Below, piece after piece: positions 1-35,131 of a DNA stretch of 35,295 nt. A program made the translations under genes and the position numbers. The stretch is from Oculatellaceae cyanobacterium bins.114 (GTDB taxonomy: Bacteria > Cyanobacteriota > Cyanobacteriia > Elainellales > Elainellaceae), in the NCBI GenBank assembly GCA_033764315.1, contig JANRJA010000142.1:1-35295 (forward strand), written 5' to 3'. How positions within the stretch are numbered: position 1 is the stretch's first letter; every line of letters starts with the position of its first letter. The notes under the pieces are model-generated. The model did no database searches. It saw only the letters and a program-made list of their open reading frames with translations, and was not told where the DNA came from.

Positions 1-151
1 CCCATCTCATCTCCGTACAGACGCGATTAATCGCGTCTCTGCCCCTCTAATAATTGCAACACCTCATCCCGATCGGGAATTGCTTCCTCTAACCCCAATG
101 CGATCGCCCGATTGAGATCCGCCAATACCTCACGATATTGCTGGCGATCGC
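1..151. repeat. Array repeat copy 1 (left-truncated by window): pyrimidine-rich spacer + 20-bp palindrome + antisense TPR-gene 3' end, ending in HIP1 at 144-151
   Basis: Aligns by eye with 920-1048, 2334-2476 and 3302-3407. Palindrome AGACGCGATTAATCGCGTCT at 19-38; internal HIP1 at 100-107. Confidence 0.95.
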
Positions 152-152
152 C
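27..152 (-). pseudogene. Headless TPR-protein C-terminal fragment (GDRQQYREVLADLNRAIALGLEEAIPDRDEVLQLLEGQRRD*)
   Basis: Manual translation; nearly identical to the C-termini of ORFs 932-1138 and 2360-2572; no start codon or N-terminus. Confidence 0.85.
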
Positions 153-220
153 CTAAATATAAGCACTTATTCAGAGAGTGATCTGCTTTCACAGATTGGT
201 TAGAACGACGATCTGTGAGT

Positions 221-619
221 TTATGGAGCAAATGGATTAAGGAGATTCAGATCTTCAATATTTTGGAAATCTTGAACATTTCGTGTCACTAGAATGCTAT
301 CAATTTGAATTGCACAGGCTGCAATCAAAGCATCTGCTAAAGGAACTCGATACTTTCGTCGAATGTCGGCTGTGCGATCGAGAACTGGTTCAGTCAGTGA
401 AACCTCAGTTAGCGATCGCAAGAAGCTCCGAATTTGATTGGCTTCTGATTCGGTTAAAGCAGGATAGCAAAGCAATTCTACCCAGCTAATTGGGCAGTAA
501 AACCCGATAGCATCTCCAGTCAAAATTTCATTGAATAGAGGTTGAACGGTTAGATCCCCATTGAAGTAATAAATAAAGATATTGGTGTCGAGTAAATATT
601 GATTACCTGTTCCATTCAT
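221..619 (-). CDS. vapC: PIN-domain (VapC family) toxin
   Basis: YLLDTN N-terminal motif, DALIAACA, LVTRNVQDF; 132 aa; overlaps the upstream small gene. Confidence 0.92.
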   Translation of the reverse strand: MNGTGNQYLLDTNIFIYYFNGDLTVQPLFNEILTGDAIGFYCPISWVELLCYPALTESEANQIRSFLRSLTEVSLTEPVLDRTADIRRKYRVPLADALIAACAIQIDSILVTRNVQDFQNIEDLNLLNPFAP

Positions 620-827
620 CTCTTAAAGTCCTTTGGAACTGGAGCGGATCAGTCCGACTTTCTAGGAAGCCGAAGAGATTAGGAATTTCAGTCGAAGTAG
701 ATGTCGATCGCTCTAACGGTTGTAGTACAACAACAATTTCAACCAGCCCAGGTTGCACCCCCTCTGGAAGGGTCAGTTCTATTTTGCGATCGCGGTTGAC
801 TAAAACAATTTGCCGAATCGTTTCCAT
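603..827 (-). CDS. Putative VapB-type antitoxin
   Basis: 74 aa, directly upstream of vapC with a 17-bp overlap; ends DPLQFQRTLRDEW, resembling PIN-associated antitoxins. Confidence 0.75.
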   Translation of the reverse strand: METIRQIVLVNRDRKIELTLPEGVQPGLVEIVVVLQPLERSTSTSTEIPNLFGFLESRTDPLQFQRTLRDEWNR

Positions 828-867
828 TAGGCTTCAGGCATTAGGATAACTTTACTCATAATGATAG

Positions 868-1136
868 GCGATCTCCCCTTGGGAGAACTGCTTTGCCTCT
901 CTCCTCCCTCATTCACCCCGTACAGACGCGATTAATCGCGTCTCTGCCCCTCTAATAATTGCAACACCGCATCCCGATCGGGAATTGCTGCCTCTAATCC
1001 CAATGCGATCGCCCGATTGAGATCCGATAGTGCCTCACGATATTGCTGAAGGTCGCGATAGGCTAACCCGCGATTGTTGTAGGCAAGTGAATATTGCGGG
1101 TTAATTTCAATCGCACGGGTATAGTCCGGCGATCGC
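868..1136. repeat. Array repeat copy 2
   Basis: Starts at 1-mismatch HIP1 GCGATCTC (868-875); one 21-nt minirepeat (876-896); palindrome 924-943; TPR 3' end; ends at HIP1 1129-1136. Confidence 0.95.
932..1136 (-). pseudogene. Headless TPR fragment (DYTRAIEINPQYSLAYNNRGLAYRDL...EGQRRD*)
   Basis: Canonical TPR residues (AYNNRG, RAI). An extra G next to the HIP1 shifts the expected AIADY frame; no N-terminus. Confidence 0.85.
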
Positions 1137-1151
1137 AATTAACATCTTGTC

Positions 1152-1181
1152 CCTCAGTCTCTTCTGAGGATGGATTACAAT
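1152..1181 (+). promoter_or_regulatory. Putative TA promoter/operator: CCTCAG-N6-CTGAGG inverted repeat then TACAAT (-10-like); near-identical copy at 2579-2608
   Basis: Inverted repeat and -10-like hexamer about 30 bp upstream of the likely ATG at 1209. Confidence 0.35.
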
Positions 1182-1208
1182 AGCATCAAACTCTCAGGTT
1201 TTAGCGTT

Positions 1209-1511
1209 ATGCAAAGCTATTCACTGACAGAAATTCCACCTCCTTCTAATGAAATTTTGGAGCAAGCTGCAAGTGAGCCAGTCTTATTGACGCAGGAATC
1301 ACAACAAGCGCAATCTGATTACGTCCTCATGTCAGCGCAACGGTACCAAGATTTAATCAGGCGATTAGAGGAATTGGAAGACCGGGTATTTGGAACGTTT
1401 GCAGAGTCTGCACTGCGATCTTCGTCAATGGTTGGCTCAGATGCGTTTACAACTGAGCTTCAGCGGTTAGCAGCTTTAGAGAAGGTTTCTCAGCCGATAA
1501 AGGTCTTATAA
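1209..1511 (+). CDS. Phd/YefM-family antitoxin, copy A (altered C-terminus, cognate RelE absent)
   Basis: EPVLLT...YVLMSA..Y..L pattern; about 97% nt identical to the 2636-2911 copy up to 1472; alternative start at 1170. Confidence 0.78.
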   Translation: MQSYSLTEIPPPSNEILEQAASEPVLLTQESQQAQSDYVLMSAQRYQDLIRRLEELEDRVFGTFAESALRSSSMVGSDAFTTELQRLAALEKVSQPIKVL

Positions 1512-1555
1512 CACCAGAGATTAGGCTAGGTGAAGAGAGAAAATGGTTGATATAG

Positions 1556-1855
1556 ATGCACATCATTAGCTATAAGCGTTTGCGGGAATTTAGTGAACAA
1601 CATGCTGACTGTCGTGAAGCTTTAGATAACTGGTTTAAGGTCACCAGTAAGGCAGATTGGTCAAATTTGGTTGAAGTTCAAGCCACTTTTCCACAAGCTG
1701 AAGCCGTTGGAAATTTCACCGTTTTTAACGTTAAAGGAAACCATTATCGTTTGATTGTTAGCATCGACTATGAAAGGCAGTTAATTTATATCAAATACGT
1801 TCTGACTCACGCAGAATACGACAAGGAGAAATGGAAGAATGACTCTTACTTTTAA
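1556..1855 (+). CDS. higB: HigB-family toxin (RelE superfamily)
   Basis: MHIISYKRLREF, VFNVKGNHYRLI, LTHAEYDK; toxin-first order. Confidence 0.9.
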   Translation: MHIISYKRLREFSEQHADCREALDNWFKVTSKADWSNLVEVQATFPQAEAVGNFTVFNVKGNHYRLIVSIDYERQLIYIKYVLTHAEYDKEKWKNDSYF

Positions 1856-2240
1856 TGCCAGTCGATATAGTGAGCTTCTATCTCAATATCAACCCAAACT
1901 GATCAGAACCGAGGAAGACAACGAACGGGCACTTGCAGTTGTAGAAGAGTTGATGCATCGACCCAATCGAAGCCCAGAAGAGAATGAATTGTATGATTTA
2001 TTGATTGCTTTAATTGAAAAGTTTGAACACGAATTTTATCAAGTGAGTTCTCAATCTAACCCCAGTTCAATGCTTGAATTTTTGATGGAGCAACAGGGAA
2101 TTGCGATCGCTGAGTTAGCCAACGTGTTGGGGTCTGAGATAGCGGCGACTGAAATGTTAGAAGGAAAGCGTGAATTGTCGATCGCCCAAGTTAAAGTATT
2201 GAGTCAATTATTCAAAGTTGATTCAAGTGTGTTTATCTAG
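1839..2240 (+). CDS. higA: HigA-type HTH antitoxin
   Basis: Overlaps higB by 17 bp; LIEKFE and a C-terminal HTH-like region (GKRELSIAQVKVLSQLFKV). Confidence 0.87.
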   Translation: MTLTFNASRYSELLSQYQPKLIRTEEDNERALAVVEELMHRPNRSPEENELYDLLIALIEKFEHEFYQVSSQSNPSSMLEFLMEQQGIAIAELANVLGSEIAATEMLEGKRELSIAQVKVLSQLFKVDSSVFI

Positions 2241-2242
2241 GA

Positions 2243-2563
2243 GCGATCGCCCTTTGGGAGAACTGCTTTGCATCGCCCCTTGGGAGAATTGCTTTGCATC
2301 GCCTCTCTTCATCCATCTACTCATCCCCATTCACCCATCTCATCTCCGTACAGACGCGATTAATCGCGTCTCTGCCCCTCTAATAATCGCAACACCTCAT
2401 CCCGATCGGGAATTGCCTCCTCTAATCCCAATTCGATCGCCCGATTCAGATCCGCCAATGCCTCACGATATTGCTGAAGGTCGCGATAGACTAAACCTCG
2501 GTTGTAATAAGCATAAACATCTTGGGGATTGATTGCAATAGCACGAGTGTAGTCAGCGATCGC
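2243..2563. repeat. Array repeat copy 3 (most complete)
   Basis: HIP1 2243-2250, 2 nt after the higA stop; two 21-nt minirepeats each followed by ATCGC; palindrome 2352-2371; TPR 3' end; HIP1 2556-2563. Confidence 0.95.
2360..2563 (-). pseudogene. Headless TPR fragment (AIADYTRAIAINPQDVYAYYNRGLVYRDL...EGQRRD*)
   Basis: TPR consensus; begins exactly at the HIP1 that encodes Ala-Ile-Ala. Confidence 0.85.
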
Positions 2564-2635
2564 AATTAACATCTTGTCTCTCAGTCTCTTCTGAGGATGG
2601 ATTACAATAGCATCAAACTCTCAGGTTTTAGCGTT

Positions 2636-2911
2636 ATGCAAAGCTATGCACTGACAGAAATTCCACCTCTTTCTAATGAAATTTTGGAGCAGGCTGCAAG
2701 TGAGCCAGTCTTGTTGACGCAGGAATCACAACAAGCGCAATCTGATTATGTCCTCATGTCAGCGCAACAGTACCAAGATTTAATCAGGCGATTAGAGGAA
2801 TTAGAAGACCGGGTATTCGGAACGTTTGCGGAGTCTGCACTGCGATCTTCGTTAATGGTTGGCTCAGATGCGTTTACAACTGAGCTTCAGCGGTTAGCAA
2901 ATTTGGGGTAA
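2636..2911 (+). CDS. Phd/YefM-family antitoxin, copy B
   Basis: Same family pattern as copy A; 17 bp upstream of the RelE toxin; alternative start at 2597. Confidence 0.8.
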   Translation: MQSYALTEIPPLSNEILEQAASEPVLLTQESQQAQSDYVLMSAQQYQDLIRRLEELEDRVFGTFAESALRSSLMVGSDAFTTELQRLANLG

Positions 2912-2928
2912 CGTCAGTAGTACGTGAT

Positions 2929-3210
2929 ATGGCAAAACTGGATGGTCTGCAAACCGTTCTTGATTTTTTGAAAGGATTACAACCCAAGATTGCGGCTCAA
3001 ATTTCTAAGAAGGTTTTGGCTCTGAATATTGAACCATTACCCTCAGATAGCAAGGAGTTAACTGGATACTCTGGCTATTATCGAGTGGATTCGGGTGAAT
3101 ATCGCATTGTTTACCGCTTCAAAGCTGATGAAGATTTAGTTGAGATTGTTCTAGTCGGTAAGCGGAATGATGATGAAGTCTACAAGCAACTGAAAAGATT
3201 GTTAGGTTAG
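2929..3210 (+). CDS. relE: RelE/ParE-family toxin
   Basis: YYRVDSGEYRIVY...VGKRNDDEVY; 93 aa. Confidence 0.9.
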   Translation: MAKLDGLQTVLDFLKGLQPKIAAQISKKVLALNIEPLPSDSKELTGYSGYYRVDSGEYRIVYRFKADEDLVEIVLVGKRNDDEVYKQLKRLLG

Positions 3211-3407
3211 GCGATCGCCCTTTGGGGGAACTGCTTTGCATCGCCCCTTGGGAGAATTGCTTTGCATCGCCTCTCTTCATCCATCTACTCATCCCCATTC
3301 ACCCATCTCATCTCCGTACAGACGCGATTAATCACGTCTCTGCCCCTCTAATAATCGCAACACCTCATCCCGATCAGGAATTGCTGCCTCTAACCCCAAT
3401 GCGATCG
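3211..3407. repeat. Array repeat copy 4 (shortest TPR piece)
   Basis: HIP1 3211-3218 abuts the relE stop; two minirepeats; palindrome 3320-3339 with one mismatch; homology stops at GCGATCG 3401-3407, the internal HIP1 of copies 1 and 2. Confidence 0.95.
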
Positions 3408-3525
3408 AATGAATTTCTCCTATCATGTCAGTTAGTGGAATCGCTAAAAAAGCAATAGGACTTATGATTGAGGATAAACCTGGTGTAAGTCTGGTGCGAT
3501 CGCTCCCATTTCCCCTCGCCTGAAC

Positions 3526-3553
3526 TGTCTTCAATCATTTGTCTTCAATCATT
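3526..3553. repeat. 14-bp tandem duplication TGTCTTCAATCATT x2
   Basis: Seen directly, just upstream of the helicase start. Confidence 0.8.
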
Positions 3554-3575
3554 AGTGTGGTAGTGTCCCCCCTTT

Positions 3576-6227
3576 GTGAACGTTTCCTCTAGCCCTTTTG
3601 AACTTGATCTCAGTCGCCTGTTTCCATTTGAGTTAGATGGGTTTCAGCAACAGGCGATCGCCGCTCTCAACGCCAACAAATCAGTCGTGGTCTGTGCACC
3701 GACGGGTTCTGGTAAGACTCTCATTGGGGAATACGCCATATATCGAGCCATAGCAAGAAACAAGCGGGTCTTTTACACCACCCCCCTGAAGGCACTGTCA
3801 AATCAAAAACTTCGCGATTTTCGGGAACAGTTTGGGGCAGATCAGGTGGGGTTGTTGACGGGGGATGTCTCGGTCAACCGCGACGCCCCAGTGCTAGTGA
3901 TGACCACTGAAATCTTTCGTAACATGCTGTATGGCACCCCGATTGGGCAAGTGGGTACATCGCTCGTCGATGTCGAGACGGTGGTGTTAGACGAATGCCA
4001 CTACATGAACGATCGCCAACGCGGTACGGTGTGGGAGGAGTCGATCATCTATTGCCCTAACGAGGTGCAACTGGTGGCTCTGTCAGCGACGGTTGCCAAT
4101 AGTCAGCAACTCACCGATTGGATTGACCAGGTACACGGGCCAACTGAGTTAATCTACTCTGACTTTCGCCCTGTTCCACTGCAATTTTTGTTCTCTAGCC
4201 CTAAAGGATTATTTCCCCTGCTCAATCCTGAAGGCAAGGGCATCAACCCCCGACTGAAGCCCAAGGGAGGCAAGCCCAAGGGCAAACAAGAGGCTCCCAG
4301 TTTGGTGTCAGTGATTGGTCAGTTGCAACAGCGAGATATGTTGCCTGCGATTTATTTCATCTTTAGTCGGCGCGGCTGTGACCAGGCCATTAATGAATTG
4401 GATGGACTGTCACTGGTGAGTGAGGCTGAAACCGCCAAACTCAAAATGCAAATTGATGAGTTTCTAACCCGCAATCCTGAAGTCAACCGTGCCCCCCTAG
4501 AACCGCTCTATCGAGGCATCGCGGCTCACCACGCAGGCATTTTACCCGCCTGGAAGGGTTTAGTTGAGGAGCTGTTTCAACAGGGCTTAATCAAAGTCGT
4601 TTTTGCCACCGAGACTCTGGCCGCAGGGATCAACATGCCCGCTCGCACCACGGTCATCTCTAGTCTCTCTAAGCGCACAGATCGGGGACACCGTTTGTTA
4701 AATGCGTCGGAGTTTCTGCAAATGGCAGGACGAGCCGGACGCCGAGGCATGGATCCGGTGGGTTATGTTGTCACAGTGCAAAATCGGTTTGAGGGAGCCA
4801 CCGAGGGAGCTTACCTAGCCACATCCGGAGCCGATCCGCTGATTAGCCAGTTTAGCCCCAGCTATGGCATGGTGCTCAACTTGTTGCAAACCCATACGCT
4901 AGAAGAGGCGAAAGCCTTGATTGAGCGAAGCTTTGGGCAATATCTGGCGACGCTGTACTTGAAGCCCCAACAACAAGAAATTGAGCGGCTTGAGGCAGAG
5001 TTAGAACACCAACACGCTCAAATTGCTTCAGCGGATGCAGCACTGTTGGCAAACTATGAAAAGCTGCATGAACGGCTCAAAGAAGAACGCCGTTTGCTGA
5101 AGATCTTGCAACATCAAGCCCAAGACCTGCAAACCAATGAGTTGACGACGGCGTTGCCCTTTGCGATCGCGGGTACCCTGTTGAGTCTCAAGGGCAAACA
5201 CATTCCAGTGCAAACCCCGCTGCCCGCTGTGTTGGTGGCAAAAGTGCCTGGTTCAGGGCAATTCCCTTACCTGATTTGTCTAGGAAAAGACAATACCTGG
5301 TATGTTGTCACCGTGTCAGATGTAGTGGGGCTGCACGCTGAGTTTCCTCGCTTGATGGCAGCCGATCATCTGACTCCCCCGGTTGAGTTAGCCCTCAGAC
5401 CAGGGCACACCTGGAGCGGACAAGAGCAGACAGCGGCGATCGCTTATCAGATTCCGCAACCCCCCTCCGCCGCTGATCTGTCGCCTGAAGTTAAAGAGCA
5501 GCTAGAGCGAGTGGCAATGGTCGAGAGTCAAATCACCGCCCATCCAGCCCATCAGTGGGGCAATCCAGGCAAACTGGTGAAGCAGCAAAAGCGCATTGCC
5601 CGAATTCAAACCGAACTGAGCGATCGCCAACAAAAATTGAGCAAACAAACTCAACGCTATTGGCAAGAATTTCTCAGCTTGATGGATATCTTGCAACAGT
5701 TTAATTGTCTGATTGGGGTTCAGCCCACTGACCTGGGGCAAATTGCGGCGGCGATTCGAGGTGACAATGAACTGTGGCTGGGTCTAGCTCTGGCATCGGG
5801 TGAACTGGATGCCCTCGATCCACATTATCTGGCGGCGGCCTGTGCCGCACTGGTGACTGAGGTATCGCGCCCCGATAGCTGGACTAACTATGACCCGTCA
5901 GGCGAAGTGGAAGAAGCTCTCGAAGGGTTACGAGGCATTCGTCGCCAACTGTTTCAATTGCAACGTCGCCATCAAGTTGTGCTACCCATTTGGTTGGAAT
6001 ATGACTTTGTGGGATTGGTCGAGCAGTGGGCATTGGGAGAACCCTGGGTAGACCTGTGTTCCAATACCAGCCTGGATGAGGGAGATGTCGTGCGGATTTT
6101 GCGACGAACCCTCGACTTTTTATCGCAGATTCCCTACGTGCCTCATTTGTCAGCAGGTTTCAAGCAAAATGCAGTGAGAGCCATTCAGTTAATCGATCGC
6201 TTCCCGGTTAACGAAAGTATCAGCTAA
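3576..6227 (+). CDS. helY: Ski2/HelY-like DEAD/DEAH-box RNA helicase
   Basis: APTGSGKT, DECH, SAT, QMAGRAGRRG; C-terminal DSHCT-like region (DEGDVVRILRR); GTG start. Confidence 0.93.
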   Translation: MNVSSSPFELDLSRLFPFELDGFQQQAIAALNANKSVVVCAPTGSGKTLIGEYAIYRAIARNKRVFYTTPLKALSNQKLRDFREQFGADQVGLLTGDVSVNRDAPVLVMTTEIFRNMLYGTPIGQVGTSLVDVETVVLDECHYMNDRQRGTVWEESIIYCPNEVQLVALSATVANSQQLTDWIDQVHGPTELIYSDFRPVPLQFLFSSPKGLFPLLNPEGKGINPRLKPKGGKPKGKQEAPSLVSVIGQLQQRDMLPAIYFIFSRRGCDQAINELDGLSLVSEAETAKLKMQIDEFLTRNPEVNRAPLEPLYRGIAAHHAGILPAWKGLVEELFQQGLIKVVFATETLAAGINMPARTTVISSLSKRTDRGHRLLNASEFLQMAGRAGRRGMDPVGYVVTVQNRFEGATEGAYLATSGADPLISQFSPSYGMVLNLLQTHTLEEAKALIERSFGQYLATLYLKPQQQEIERLEAELEHQHAQIASADAALLANYEKLHERLKEERRLLKILQHQAQDLQTNELTTALPFAIAGTLLSLKGKHIPVQTPLPAVLVAKVPGSGQFPYLICLGKDNTWYVVTVSDVVGLHAEFPRLMAADHLTPPVELALRPGHTWSGQEQTAAIAYQIPQPPSAADLSPEVKEQLERVAMVESQITAHPAHQWGNPGKLVKQQKRIARIQTELSDRQQKLSKQTQRYWQEFLSLMDILQQFNCLIGVQPTDLGQIAAAIRGDNELWLGLALASGELDALDPHYLAAACAALVTEVSRPDSWTNYDPSGEVEEALEGLRGIRRQLFQLQRRHQVVLPIWLEYDFVGLVEQWALGEPWVDLCSNTSLDEGDVVRILRRTLDFLSQIPYVPHLSAGFKQNAVRAIQLIDRFPVNESIS

Positions 6228-15569: not shown

Positions 15570-15669
15570 ATACCAATATGAATTGGCTTCGCTGCACATG
15601 ATTTCGTAAGGGCGTTTCGCGAAACGCCTTTACCCAGTAATCTGCCACAATCAAACATTAAATCGGTAT
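15570..15669. repeat. REP-like palindrome (15606-15633) inside a ~100-bp element with loose ATACC...GGTAT terminal inverted repeats
   Basis: GTAAGGGCGTTTCGCGAAACGCCTTTAC; second palindrome copy at 18085-18110; similar ATACCAAT end at 12660. Confidence 0.6.
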
Positions 15670-18084: not shown

Positions 18085-18110
18085 GTAAGGGCGTTTTGCG
18101 AAACGCCCTT
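18085..18110. repeat. REP-like palindrome, same family as 15606-15633
   Basis: GTAAGGGCGTTTTGCGAAACGCCCTT between convergent genes. Confidence 0.75.
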
Positions 18111-30660: not shown

Positions 30661-32175
30661 ATGATAGCGACGGGTCAACCAGCACTACACTATCAGCCAA
30701 AGTACAAGCCTAATCAACTCATTTGTGGTACGGGGCAAACCGCCATTGTGACCGGATGGACGGTGAAAGGGGCGATCGCCAAAAAGTTACACCCCCACGA
30801 ATACGCCGTGATCGGGCAACTCTATAGCCCCACCCGTGGTATTGATCTGTTGGTTCGCAACCTGTTAGCCAACCCTCAGGTACGGTTTATCGTGATTTTA
30901 AACGCCACTAAAGAAGACCAAAATGCAGGAGCATGTGCCTGTTTCATTGATTTCTTGCGATCTAGCGTTGAGCAGGGCAAGACCGACACCGGGCGCGAGT
31001 GTTGGGTGGTGCGATCCGCTATCACAGGCTATATCGATATTGAAATCTCACTCGACGCATTGGAGCACCTGCGCCAGTCGGTCGAATGGAGTGAAGCAAA
31101 GTCAATTGCTGAGGCGGTTCAACAGGTTCAAGCCTATGCCACACGAGGAGCGATCGCTCCCTGGGGAACTGCTCTCACCTTTCCACAAGCCCCATTAACA
31201 CCGACAACCCTTCCAGGCGTGCGTTATGGACACCGCATTGAAGGCAAAACGATTGCTGAAACCTGGGTCAAAATAATTCACCGGATCAAAACAACCGGCA
31301 CCATTCGCCCCACTGCCTATGATGGTCACTGGCAAGAACTGATTGATTTGGTGGCGATTGTCACCGCTGAACCCGATGGATTCTACTTTCCAGACCCTAA
31401 CTATCTCCCCGTCGATCGCCCCTTCATTCAGCAATACATCTCCCAGATCTTGGATGATGCGCCTCTCCGCGAAGGTGTGAAATATACCTATGGGCAACGG
31501 TTGCGATCGTGGTTTGGGCAAGACCAGATTCAACAGGTGATCGAAAAGCTAGCCGCTGATCTCAACTCTGCCAGAGCCGTTATGTCTTTGTGGGATGTGA
31601 ATGACCACGCCGCAGGGGATAGCCCACCCTGTTTGAATCATATTTGGGTGCGAATCATCGATGGAGAACTCTCGCTCACCGCTACCTTTCGCAGCAATGA
31701 TATGTTTTCAGCGTGGGTTGCCAATGCAATGGGCTTGCGGGCATTGCAGCAACACATTCTCAAGGCAGTGAGCGACCTTAGCTCTGTCTCGCTTACATTA
31801 GGCCCGTTAATCACAATTAGCCAGAGTGCCCATATCTACGATGATTGCTGGGAGAACAGCGATCGCCTGATCGAGTCACAATATGCCAAGATCTGCCAGC
31901 AACGAGACTACGCTGACCCCATCGGCAGTTTCACCATTACCGTTCAACCTGACCTGATTGTGATAGAACACTTGACTCCAGGCTCCGGAGAAACGATTAA
32001 CTGCTATTCAGGACGGTCTGCCACCCAACTCTATCGACAGATCGCCACCCATTGCCCCGCCTTGCAACCCGAACACGCTCTCTATCTCGGCGCAGAATTG
32101 CAAAAAGCAGAGCTTGCCCTGACCCGACCTGAGCAATTTAGCTATGAACAAGACAAACCCTTAAAAGGGTTGTAG
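30661..32175 (+). CDS. thyA: Thymidylate synthase (ThyA-type) fused to an N-terminal MtrA-like and a C-terminal DUF4346-like domain
   Basis: YTYGQRL, SARA, PPC, FRSNDMFSAWVAN, SAHIYD; N-terminal GIDLLVRNLLANPQVRFIV; C-terminal HALYLGAELQKAE...YEQDKPL. Confidence 0.8.
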   Translation: MIATGQPALHYQPKYKPNQLICGTGQTAIVTGWTVKGAIAKKLHPHEYAVIGQLYSPTRGIDLLVRNLLANPQVRFIVILNATKEDQNAGACACFIDFLRSSVEQGKTDTGRECWVVRSAITGYIDIEISLDALEHLRQSVEWSEAKSIAEAVQQVQAYATRGAIAPWGTALTFPQAPLTPTTLPGVRYGHRIEGKTIAETWVKIIHRIKTTGTIRPTAYDGHWQELIDLVAIVTAEPDGFYFPDPNYLPVDRPFIQQYISQILDDAPLREGVKYTYGQRLRSWFGQDQIQQVIEKLAADLNSARAVMSLWDVNDHAAGDSPPCLNHIWVRIIDGELSLTATFRSNDMFSAWVANAMGLRALQQHILKAVSDLSSVSLTLGPLITISQSAHIYDDCWENSDRLIESQYAKICQQRDYADPIGSFTITVQPDLIVIEHLTPGSGETINCYSGRSATQLYRQIATHCPALQPEHALYLGAELQKAELALTRPEQFSYEQDKPLKGL

Positions 32176-32407
32176 TCATGGGTCACTCACTCCATCTGCA
32201 ACTATGTTCAGATCCCCGATTTTTGGTGATGCACCCTGGGGGGAATCGGTCTACCGCTCTCCTTCCAAGATACAAGGGGAGACTCTCCCAATACTTGGTT
32301 TCAGTTCCATAGGTTTCAGCTCTATTGAAATACCAGACCTGATTGACAATTGACAACGAACCGTTGACGATAAACGGTTGACCCAACTCCCTACTTCCTT
32401 TTAGCTG

Positions 32408-32842
32408 ATGGATCTGTTACTAAAAGTCAAACTACTCAACGAACATGCTCGCTTGCCCCACTATGCCCATCCTGGAGATGCAGGCTTAGATTTATTCTCA
32501 ACAGTCGAAACAGTCATCGAAGCAGGAAGCAGTGCCCTCATTCCAACAGGTCTAAGTATTCAATTGCCCCCGCACACAGAGGCTCAAGTTAGACCCCGCA
32601 GTGGGCTAGCCCTCAAGCATCAAGTCACAGTTCTCAATACCCCAGGCACAATCGACGAAGGCTATCGCGGAGAAGTTGGAGTTATCTTGATTAACCACGG
32701 TAAGTCACCTTTTCACATCACAATTGGCATGAAAATCGCGCAAATGGTGATCAAACCCGTCTATCCCGTGACGGTGCAAGCCGTTGAAGCGTTAGAGTCA
32801 ACCTCTAGAGGCGAAGGAGGATTTGGCTCTACCGGAGTTTGA
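32408..32842 (+). CDS. dut: dUTP diphosphatase
   Basis: [38 protein letters not shown]. Confidence 0.97.
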
Positions 32843-34501: not shown

Positions 34502-35131
34502 ATGAAGCTTTCAACCTTGTCTAAAAAGGTGTGGTTAAACATTTTTGCGGTCGGTTTCACAACACTTGCACTAGCATTGCCTGTCACTGCCACTACCAGC
34601 ACTGGCAGTGCAGGAGGTGCTACTGGAACCACAGGCGGCACTACTGGAACTACGGGCGGCACAACAAGCGGCACAACAGGCGGCACTACTGGATCTACTG
34701 GAACTACAAATGGTACTAGTGGCACAACCGGAACGACAGGCGGTACTAGTGGCACTATGGGTGGTACTAGTGGCACTATGGGTGGTACTACTGGTACAAC
34801 AGGGACAACTGGAACGACAGGGGGTACTACTGGCGGCACAACCGGAACCACTGGAACGACAGGCGGAACCACTGGTGGCACTACAGGCGACACTACTGGT
34901 ACAACTGGTACAACTGGTACAACTGGAACGACAGGCAGTACCACTGGGACAACAACCGCTCCCTATGGAACGACCGGAACCACAACTGATACCTTGCAAA
35001 CAGAAGACAATAACGATTGGAGTTGGTTAGGCTTGTTTGGTTTACTGGGGTTAGCAGGACTATTACCCAGAGGCCAAGAACCTGTCCGGTCTGTAGATCC
35101 TAATGTCACCACTCACACCGGATCACGCTAG
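34502..35131 (+). CDS. Thr/Gly-rich exported protein with WGxxGxxG-type C-terminal anchor
   Basis: Signal peptide, (G)GTT repeats, DWSWLGLFGLLGLAGL. Confidence 0.82.
   Translation: MKLSTLSKKVWLNIFAVGFTTLALALPVTATTSTGSAGGATGTTGGTTGTTGGTTSGTTGGTTGSTGTTNGTSGTTGTTGGTSGTMGGTSGTMGGTTGTTGTTGTTGGTTGGTTGTTGTTGGTTGGTTGDTTGTTGTTGTTGTTGSTTGTTTAPYGTTGTTTDTLQTEDNNDWSWLGLFGLLGLAGLLPRGQEPVRSVDPNVTTHTGSR

What the first reader, a model, noticed from the sequence alone, without database searches (positions are those of the whole stretch)
1049..2563. TPR fragments are diverged alleles under protein-level selection inside near-identical flanks
Seen: over the 25 codons DYTRAI...YRD, copies 2 and 3 differ at 17 codons by my count, 11 synonymous and 6 non-synonymous (EINPQYSLAYNN vs AINPQDVYAYYN). 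The adjacent 336 bp beyond the shared HIP1 (1137-1472 vs 2564-2899) differ at only about 11 positions. Simple tandem duplication followed by decay would not give this mosaic. Inference: the TPR segment was exchanged with different alleles or different internal repeats of a functional TPR gene. The fragments may be silent donor cassettes for C-terminal variation, or recombination anchors, with TA modules protecting the array from deletion.
Basis: partly seen in the sequence, partly recalled or inferred. Interest (0 to 1): 0.75.

Follow-up and report, generated by a model that had tools for sequence, protein, structure and literature searches.

The report
Leftover gene tails joined at HIP1
Four leftover ends of a missing repeat-protein gene alternate with toxin-antitoxin gene pairs in a cyanobacterium, nearly all joined at the short palindrome HIP1, and the mismatch between two of them likely comes from different repeat units of intact genes stitched in by recombination, not from selection on the fragments.

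Summary
The counts are exact: 17 of 25 codons differ (11 synonymous, 6 not), against 11 of 336 flank bases. The step is far beyond chance. But the divergent 66 bases (20 differences, pS 0.67, pN 0.17) look like any two internal TPR repeats of one intact relative (mean 21.6, pS 0.63, pN 0.23), so the synonymous bias is likely inherited. Copy 2 is frameshifted against copy 3's start codon. No parent or donor gene is in this assembly, and the GQRRD* ending is read-through into a dispersed palindrome.

Six of seven distinct joints lie at HIP1 or a 7/8 match; HIP1 is the Ala-Ile-Ala of many of these repeats. Relatives show the parts moving: a 1.9-kb toxin-antitoxin block gained or lost exactly at HIP1, a TPR gene identical between two species from a HIP1 onward, and a third version of the divergent segment behind the same joint in another sample.

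Best reading: an rhs-like array of displaced gene tips built by HIP1-anchored recombination, with the gene body since deleted. Silent donor cassettes are unsupported. The scan earlier noted a HIP1 crossover on other DNA (e1-9949791), not this array.

The parts
27..151 (-). Tail 1: cap of the TPR gene only, beginning at a perfect HIP1 (144-151); contig starts just beyond it
221..827 (-). VapC (PIN) toxin 221-619 and upstream 74-aa partner 603-827 (antitoxin by gene order; no family hit); 610-873 is 91% identical to a block in G035
868..875 (.). HIP1 with one mismatch at the joint between tail 2's downstream repeats and the VapBC module; a perfect HIP1 stands at the matching place in G035 (L016 6227)
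932..1136 (-).
1061..1126 (-). Divergent 22-codon TPR segment of tail 2
1137..1511 (+). Phd/YefM-like antitoxin copy without its toxin (ORF 1170-1511), 3.3% different from 2564-2899
1556..2240 (+). HigB toxin 1556-1855 (PF09907) and HTH partner 1839-2240 (HigA by gene order; weak HTH hit)
2243..2359 (.). HIP1 2243-2250, short tandem repeats and purine/pyrimidine-skewed spacer downstream of tail 3 (96% identical to 3211-3327)
2352..2371 (.). Dispersed 20-base palindrome carrying the tail's stop codon (also 19-38, 924-943, 3320-3339); 37 exact copies of its 20-mer on the + strand of the assembly
2360..2563 (-).
2489..2554 (-). Divergent 22-codon TPR segment of tail 3; a third version lies behind the same joint in run X2/X3
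2564..3210 (+). Phd/YefM-like antitoxin 2597-2911 and ParE/RelE-family toxin 2929-3210: the cognate pair in G025, G033 and G011
3211..3408 (-). Tail 4: HIP1 3211-3218, repeats, stop 3328-3330, last 26 codons of the cap, cut at a 7/8 HIP1 (3401-3408)
3409..3503 (.). 95-base remnant of the slot where the gene body likely stood; aligns to the helicase-upstream DNA of G001, which has a HIP1 (L017 8777) at about the place of the tail-4 joint and a 1382-aa TIR-WD40 gene in the slot
3576..6227 (+). DEAD/DSHCT helicase, conserved flank (81.7% identical in G001)

Best explanation
The region is a tandem array of four orphan 3' ends of one multi-repeat TPR gene alternating with toxin-antitoxin modules, with six of seven distinct joints at HIP1 or a 7/8 match, and it likely grew by repeated recombination at HIP1 with DNA from related strains, each event likely leaving one more gene tip behind, after which the gene body was likely deleted. 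SHOWN: the anatomy, the joints, the lack of a parent in this assembly, the size and kind of divergence. INFERRED steps: (1) In this gene family the codons Ala-Ile-Ala before each repeat often spell GCGATCGC, so the gene is studded with HIP1 at 102-base spacing. (2) The last repeat in front of the cap is replaced from time to time by an internal repeat (crossover near the RGL-x-Y codons, 20-25), so copies with nearly the same cap carry different repeat halves; their synonymous-rich divergence was earned while they were internal repeats of working genes. (3) A unit HIP1-[last repeat, cap, palindrome]-HIP1-[TA module] is added by a crossover at the repeat's HIP1, either as a circle or as linear transforming DNA anchored by homology on one side; the resident tip ends up behind the incoming TA module. 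Because the same two HIP1 sites are used each time, the antitoxin-HIP1-tail joint recurs with different repeat versions and near-identical flanks. (4) Neighbouring copies go on exchanging short patches. (5) A deletion from the HIP1 inside the cap (3401-3408) to the helicase-upstream DNA removed the gene body. The fragments are most likely by-products and homology anchors, not selected peptides.
For: Segment divergence matches internal repeats of one intact gene: 20/66 bases, pS 0.67, pN 0.17 vs G073's 21 repeat pairs mean 21.6 (10-27), pS 0.63, pN 0.23, and five G033 genes mean 19.3-26.3. HIP1 stands in the three codons before the segment in 18 of 32 repeats of six intact genes. Joints: 4 perfect HIP1, 2 at 7/8, 1 none among 7 distinct joints; 5 of 7 hold CGATCG, binomial p about 1e-5 at genome density (joints not fully independent). 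G035 vs G073: a 1.93-kb TA block downstream of a cap-bearing TPR gene is present or absent exactly at HIP1, and the gene differs by one 102-base repeat; the two species are 77-94% identical in flanks but have no substitution from the HIP1 at L016 4578 to 7490, indels aside. A 314-base contig in X2/X3 (depth 5.8) spans the antitoxin-HIP1-tail joint with a third version: 9 listed differences from tail 3, 5 shared with tail 2, 4 unlike both, only 2 differences in 197 flank bases; a 234-base X1 contig also spans it. The three informative sites among the four caps support all three possible splits (522 of 200,000 simulated star trees give two or more). Short cap-bearing proteins starting at the AIAD motif occur in 3 of 5 other clusters found (P0134, P0137, P0139), and P0138 and P0146 join the N-terminal leader directly to a late repeat at AIA. 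Orphan tails also in G001 and G011. HIP1-linked site-specific and illegitimate recombination and better transformation are reported (passages of PMC4390886 and PMC13756078, abstract of 10.1101/2024.09.10.611283).
Against: The parent gene and the donors were not found: best match to either segment in the assembly 48/66, in relatives 49/66; the tree of 39 repeat segments is unresolved (p-AU 0.50 for tails 2+3 together). So step 2 is inferred from relatives only. Genome-wide, ends of other local repeats are not enriched at HIP1 (8 of 70 vs 8.9% at random), so HIP1 joints are not a general rule for duplications here. One joint (1472/2899) has no HIP1, and the G001 and G011 tails do not start at HIP1. 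A TA cluster follows the cap clearly in only 3 of 9 other genomes with the cap (G035, G011, G198; a lone nucleotidyltransferase in G073). The tract edge at HIP1 in G035/G073 has about 8% local chance, and both may be metagenome bins. Five of X2's 14 differences were not listed by the tool. The assembly is 90.7% complete and the contig starts inside the repeat.
Confidence: 0.6

Rival explanations
1. Old duplication with homogenised flanks: tails 2 and 3 descend from two old neighbouring paralogues (as in the five-gene array of G033), both cut down to tips, and gene conversion later made the caps and antitoxin copies alike while skipping the 66 bases between them.
For: G033 holds five tandem intact paralogues with this cap. 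The four caps are mosaic. The antitoxin-then-HigB order of unit 3 also exists in G035 at 77-90% identity, so that arrangement may be older than the 3.3% difference between the two antitoxin copies.
Against: G033 paralogue caps differ at 18-40 of 108 bases while the window's differ at 3-7 of 78, so all four caps would need near-complete conversion; a third segment version behind the same joint in X2/X3 is not expected from two fixed paralogues; conversion would have to stop at the HIP1 edge.
Confidence: 0.17
2. Silent donor cassettes: the tips are stored variants copied into an expressed TPR gene to vary its last repeat, with TA pairs guarding the store.
For: Conserved flanks around a variable core is the geometry of cassette systems; three versions exist; the assembly is incomplete, and a 42-base unitig at depth 14 in X2 hints at a multi-repeat gene in a relative.
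Against: No recipient in the assembly by tblastn with the tails, with P0009, or with the leaders and middle parts of candidate parents; the slot beside the helicase is empty; only two of four tips hold a variable part; the store would change about 6 residues of one repeat; the same TA modules are broken in G035.
Confidence: 0.07
3. Assembly chimera: strain variants, each with one tail and one TA module, were strung together through the shared repeat in a metagenome assembly.
For: Draft of 251 contigs; the contig begins inside the repeat; no source reads were available (best run shares 0.07 of words).
Against: The antitoxin-HIP1-tail joint is bridged by single contigs in two other samples; repeats are 94-555 bases and 92-96% identical; contamination estimate 0.42%. 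The mosaic itself does not depend on the tandem order.
Confidence: 0.07
4. The tails are translated mini-proteins under their own purifying selection.
For: Tail 3 is an open 70-aa frame from ATG 2572 and tail 2 a 68-aa frame from TTG 1138; similar short proteins are called in other samples.
Against: Tail 2 is frameshifted against the ATG and its first 6 residues come from the antitoxin's upstream DNA; tails 1 and 4 have no start; cap differences are mostly non-synonymous (5 vs 2); the C-terminal QRRD is palindrome read-through; database calls are predictions.
Confidence: 0.04
5. An integron cassette array (CALIN) whose attC sites are the repeated spacers.
For: TA pairs in a repeat-punctuated array; the genome has an integron integrase on C16 above cut-off.
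Against: No RYYYAAC...GTTRRRY pair in 1-3600 on either strand; DNA beside the integrase has no match to the window; modules face both ways.
Confidence: 0.01

Closest known systems
rhs C-terminal displacement arrays (Jackson et al. 2009, PMC2935791; abstract and section 10 read)
   Same: A string of dissociated 3' gene fragments of varying length, each beginning with near-identical gene sequence, mostly without start codons and partly frameshifted, proposed to arise by recombination with incoming circles that displace the resident tip.
   Different: In rhs the shared part is the core upstream and the tips are non-homologous toxins; here the shared part is the very end (cap) and only one repeat half varies. 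The cargo is ordinary type II TA pairs, joints are at HIP1, and no intact gene heads the array.
Orphan immunity arrays of Vibrio T6SS, homology-facilitated illegitimate recombination (Kirchberger et al. 2017, PMC5361080; passages read)
   Same: Arrays grow by successive insertion anchored by homology on one side and a short illegitimate joint on the other; arrays then spread by ordinary homologous recombination.
   Different: No effector-immunity logic here; the short joint is a defined palindrome; retained pieces are gene ends, not whole immunity genes.
HIP1-mediated recombination in cyanobacteria: smtB deletion (Gupta 1993), plasmid recombination in PCC 7002 (Akiyama 1998), HIP1-improved transformation (Kamoku and Nielsen). 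Seen only as passages in PMC4390886 and PMC13756078 and the abstract of 10.1101/2024.09.10.611283; the original 1993 and 1998 papers were not read
   Same: Joints, a deletion and an indel at GCGATCGC.
   Different: Those are single laboratory events; here several natural joints at one locus, with HIP1 supplied by a protein repeat motif.
Staphylococcus aureus lpl tandem paralogue cluster (Tsuru and Kobayashi 2008, PMC2568036; abstract read)
   Same: The unit of exchange spans a gene's 3' part plus downstream DNA, not an ORF.
   Different: lpl genes stay intact and recombine in a central conserved region; here only tips remain.
Cap-bearing TPR genes of relatives: AAA_35 (PF14516)-TPR proteins P0003, P0009 and short leader-TPR genes of G035/G073, P0138, P0146
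   Same: Same C-terminal cap (tail 3: 89% aa identity to G073 and P0134, 83% to P0003 and P0037) and same repeat style.
   Different: None ends in GQRRD; none is the parent; function untested.

Membership tests
rhs-type displaced-tip array | Several dissociated 3' fragments in tandem, same orientation, as direct repeats of varying length | tested here: met
   four tails on the minus strand, 26 to 64 codons
rhs-type displaced-tip array | Intact gene immediately upstream with near-identical shared part | tested here: not met
   95-base slot only; no parent in assembly
rhs-type displaced-tip array | Non-homologous variable tips (toxins) with immunity genes | tested here: not met
   caps 91-96% identical; neighbours are type II TA pairs
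rhs-type displaced-tip array | A tip attached in one strain and displaced in another | tested here: inconclusive
   caps are attached in G035/G073/G033 and orphan in G000/G001/G011, but no conspecific genome was available
Silent-cassette gene conversion system (vls/pilS type; features recalled) | An expressed recipient gene with the same conserved flanks | tested here: not met
   assembly 90.7% complete
Silent-cassette gene conversion system (vls/pilS type; features recalled) | Within-clone variation of the recipient matching cassettes | not testable with these tools
   no source reads or RNA run listed
Integron / CALIN | attC sites between cassettes | tested here: not met
   no R''/R' pair in 1-3600; pattern scan only, no covariance model
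Integron / CALIN | Linked integron integrase and attI | tested here: not met
   intI lies on C16; its flanks do not match the window
HIP1-mediated recombination product | Breakpoints within GCGATCGC or its CGATCG core | tested here: met
   5 of 7 distinct joints hold CGATCG, a sixth is 7/8; G035/G073 indel exact
HIP1-mediated recombination product | Dependence of the event on HIP1 or its methylation | not testable with these tools
   needs an experiment
Type II TA modules | Toxin family hit with adjacent small partner gene | tested here: met
   PIN, HigB, ParE above Pfam cut-offs; partners by gene order, Phd/YefM by Atlas lead 0.91 and conserved order in 3 of 5 other genomes

The most novel reading that the evidence does not exclude
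The 3' end of this TPR gene family is a recombinase-free cassette trap: because the repeat motif Ala-Ile-Ala spells HIP1, each incoming HIP1-[tip]-TA unit swaps the protein's last repeat and adds a TA pair, within and between species, giving an integron-like TA array built on a host palindrome instead of attC and an integrase.
Probability: 0.25. Interest if true: 0.7.

Novelty: new variant of a known kind. Interest (0 to 1): 0.4.

Why it matters
The function of HIP1 is a long-open question, and the recombination evidence I saw cited is from a few laboratory cases. This locus and its relatives give natural breakpoints at HIP1 (joints, an exact 1.9-kb indel, the edge of an apparent inter-species transfer) and a concrete test system. 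It also shows how a protein repeat whose consensus encodes HIP1 can become recombination-prone. The headline claim of selected or stored TPR variants does not hold, which lowers the surprise.

Tried and rejected
Parent search: tblastn and exact-peptide scan of the assembly found the cap only in the four window copies; P0009 and leader/middle parts of candidate parents found no orthologue; contig ends gave no continuation; C135, C47, C193, C145, C239 genes have other C-termini. Database searches for a longer protein with this cap: 427 hits among 797 candidates, only the best 120 listed; cap-only search 3 hits among 154 candidates; 31-aa phmmer over 1.84 billion representatives 7 hits, of which P0143-P0145 are unrelated TPR matches; none ends in GQRRD. 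Cap found in 7 of 56 other family genomes and 6 of 400 class genomes at E<=1e-9. Tree of 39 segments unresolved. Promoter/terminator scan at chance level (6 vs 6.5; 4 vs 2.7). PDB search with the antitoxin: nothing below E=1.2. No RNA holder listed; parts of the window without contig cover in X1-X3 say nothing. X2 and X3 look like one data set filed twice and are counted once. Family-wide test that the last repeat varies more than the cap was weak: identity 0.57 vs 0.61, 26 of 45 pairs among intact genes. Integron reading rejected. Literature searches (listings only unless stated) showed no paper on HIP1-joined arrays of gene tips and TA pairs; the library lacks most subscription papers; no supplements were opened.
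Full report
Setting. The window is the whole contig C218 of a 6.64-Mb, 251-contig cyanobacterial assembly, 90.7% complete, with 10,661 HIP1 octamers. Bases 1-3500 hold four minus-strand copies of a TPR gene end (tails 1-4; stops at 27, 932, 2360, 3328) separated by a PIN toxin with a small partner, an orphan Phd-like gene plus HigB and an HTH partner, and a Phd-like gene plus a ParE-family toxin; a DEAD-box helicase and housekeeping genes follow. The Phd label rests on an Atlas lead (0.91, 176 shared features) and on the gene preceding the same toxin in 3 of 5 other genomes that have it.

Observation. Confirmed to the codon: 17 of 25 codons differ, 11 synonymous and 6 non-synonymous; flanks differ at 11 of 336. 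The differences sit in codons 1-22: 20 of 66 bases, against 9 of 126 in the cap (p=7e-5); no shuffle of 100,000 reached 20 in a 66-base window. Within the segment pS is 0.67 and pN 0.17 (dS 1.7, dN 0.19; Fisher p=2e-4). In the cap pS 0.13 and pN 0.05 do not differ significantly (p=0.22), with 5 non-synonymous and 2 synonymous codons. So purifying selection acted while the two segments diverged; the question is where.

Where the selection acted. Intact genes with the same cap exist in relatives: a 345-codon leader-plus-TPR gene in G073 and G035, five tandem paralogues in G033, and AAA_35-TPR proteins P0003 and P0009. Cutting the same 66 bases out of each internal repeat gives, within G073's one gene, a mean of 21.6 differences (10-27 over 21 pairs), pS 0.63 and pN 0.23; the five G033 genes give means of 19.3-26.3. 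Tails 2 and 3 therefore differ as two internal repeats of one working gene do. The fragments themselves show decay: tail 2 has an extra base after HIP1 that breaks the frame from the ATG that opens tail 3, and tails 1 and 4 lack starts. The ending QRRD* is read through a dispersed palindrome, 37 exact copies of its 20-mer on one strand of the assembly; intact relatives end 1-5 residues after the LL of the cap. That this palindrome resembles REP or small dispersed repeats is recalled, not tested.

No parent, no donor. The cap occurs only in the four window copies. No orthologue of either candidate parent type is in the assembly. An exhaustive ungapped scan gave at best 48 of 66 identities for either segment; relatives gave at best 49; a tree was unresolved. 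In the same-genus genome G001 the helicase orthologue is followed by a HIP1, a 1382-aa TIR-WD40 gene and one orphan tail. The window's 95-base spacer aligns to that helicase-upstream DNA with the tail-4 joint at about the place of G001's HIP1. I infer that the gene body stood in this slot and was deleted. The assembly's incompleteness and the contig start inside the repeat leave an unassembled copy possible.

Joints. Of seven distinct joints, four are perfect HIP1 (144, 1129/2556, 2243, 3211), two are 7/8 matches (868, 3401) and one has none (1472/2899). Five of seven hold CGATCG, about 1e-5 by a binomial at genome density, though three share one repeat-side site and the joints were identified after looking. 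The reason HIP1 starts tails 2 and 3 is visible: the Ala-Ile-Ala codons before the segment spell GCGATCGC in 18 of 32 repeats of six intact genes. A control goes against generality: ends of other local repeats in the genome lie near HIP1 in 8 of 70 cases against 8.9% at random, and the single tails of G001 and G011 do not start at HIP1.

The parts move in relatives. G035 and G073 share the TPR gene; G035 carries behind it a 1.93-kb block (HEPN-nucleotidyltransferase pair, the window's VapB-like gene at 91%, its Phd-like gene at 77-80%, scraps of VapC and HigB) that G073 lacks, with HIP1 at both ends in G035 and one HIP1 in G073. The gene differs by one 102-base repeat. Their flanks are 77-94% identical, yet there is no substitution from L016 4578, the first base of a HIP1, to 7490, indels aside: an apparent recent transfer between species, with about 8% local chance for the edge and the caveat that both may be metagenome bins. 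Short proteins P0134, P0137 and P0139 begin at the AIAD motif; P0138 and P0146 join the leader straight to a late repeat at AIA and carry different last repeats; their DNA context could not be seen. A TA cluster follows the cap in G035, G011 and G198 (G198 labels from my reading of the sequences), partly in G073, and not directly in G001, G033, G079, G018 or G090.

Population evidence. Three runs share 0.07 of the window's words; X2 and X3 appear to be one data set. A 314-base X2 contig (depth 5.8) covers 2447-2760 without gaps, across the tail-HIP1-antitoxin joint, with 14 differences in 2447-2640 of which the tool lists 9, all in 2495-2521: 5 agree with tail 2 and 4 with neither tail; the flank has 2 differences. 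A 234-base X1 contig (depth 2.4) spans the joint with no difference in 2527-2640. So the joint is real outside this assembly and carries at least three segment versions. Among the four caps, the three informative sites support three incompatible splits (522 of 200,000 simulations give two or more), so the caps too are recombinant.

Mechanism. Most likely (0.6): repeat shuffling changes the last repeat of intact alleles; crossovers at the repeat's HIP1 and at the HIP1 beyond a downstream TA module add tip-plus-TA units from related strains; copies exchange patches; the body is finally deleted. Circles and one-side-anchored linear DNA cannot be told apart here. The main rival (0.17) is old paralogue duplication with homogenised flanks; G033's paralogue caps are far more diverged (18-40 of 108) than the window's (3-7 of 78), and the third version argues against it. 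Silent cassettes (0.07), assembly chimera (0.07), mini-proteins (0.04) and integron (0.01) follow.

Known systems. It works like rhs tip displacement (PMC2935791, abstract and section 10) and like the homology-anchored arrays proposed for Vibrio T6SS (PMC5361080, passages), but is a member of neither: no intact head gene, no variable toxin tips. HIP1's link to site-specific and illegitimate recombination and to transformation is reported (PMC4390886 and PMC13756078, passages; 10.1101/2024.09.10.611283, abstract). Five searches listed no description of a HIP1-joined array of gene tips and TA pairs; the library is partial.

Verdict. Observation confirmed; interpretation partly supported; new variant of a known kind; interest 0.4.

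Noticed in passing
L016 4578-5506 and 7434-7490 vs L036 (G035 vs G073): A TPR gene with no substitutions between two species whose flanks are 77-94% identical; the tract starts at a HIP1. G035's copy has a one-base frameshift and one repeat fewer.
   Followed up: partly
L034 8335-14860 (G033:C62): Five tandem intact TPR paralogues with the same cap, with a Panacea-domain gene pair and a PIN gene on one side; part of the array also in G079.
   Followed up: partly
G000:C239 34040-40500: AAA_35-WD40 gene followed by three TA-like pairs separated by the same palindrome and short repeats as in the window, with near-HIP1 joints but no gene tails.
   Followed up: partly
G000:C47 10400-14303: Intact AAA_35-TPR gene with another C-terminus, followed by the same palindrome, a HIP1 and small toxin/immunity-like genes.
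   Followed up: partly
G000:C16 1-1124; C112, C183, C155, C44 ends: Integron integrase above cut-off at a contig start; its upstream 141-182 bases recur at 98-100% at the ends of C112 and C183 and at about 82% on C155 and C44, suggesting several integron pieces.
   Followed up: no
L017 4074-8338 (G001): The slot beside the helicase holds a 1382-aa TIR-WD40 gene whose stop lies about 40 bases from an orphan TPR tail: a different repeat-protein gene in the same slot.
   Followed up: partly
window 34502-35131: 209-aa ORF without Pfam hit containing 9/21-base tandem repeats near the right contig end.
   Followed up: no
window 15606-15633 and 18085-18110: A second dispersed 26-base palindrome in two intergenic places.
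   Followed up: no
window 30661-32842: Thymidylate-synthase-like plus DUF4346 protein next to dUTPase.
   Followed up: no
window 1005-1012, 100-107 vs 2433-2440: The cap codon that is Glu in tail 3 and in nearly all relatives is Ala in tails 1, 2 and 4, which creates a HIP1; tail 4 is cut there.
   Followed up: partly
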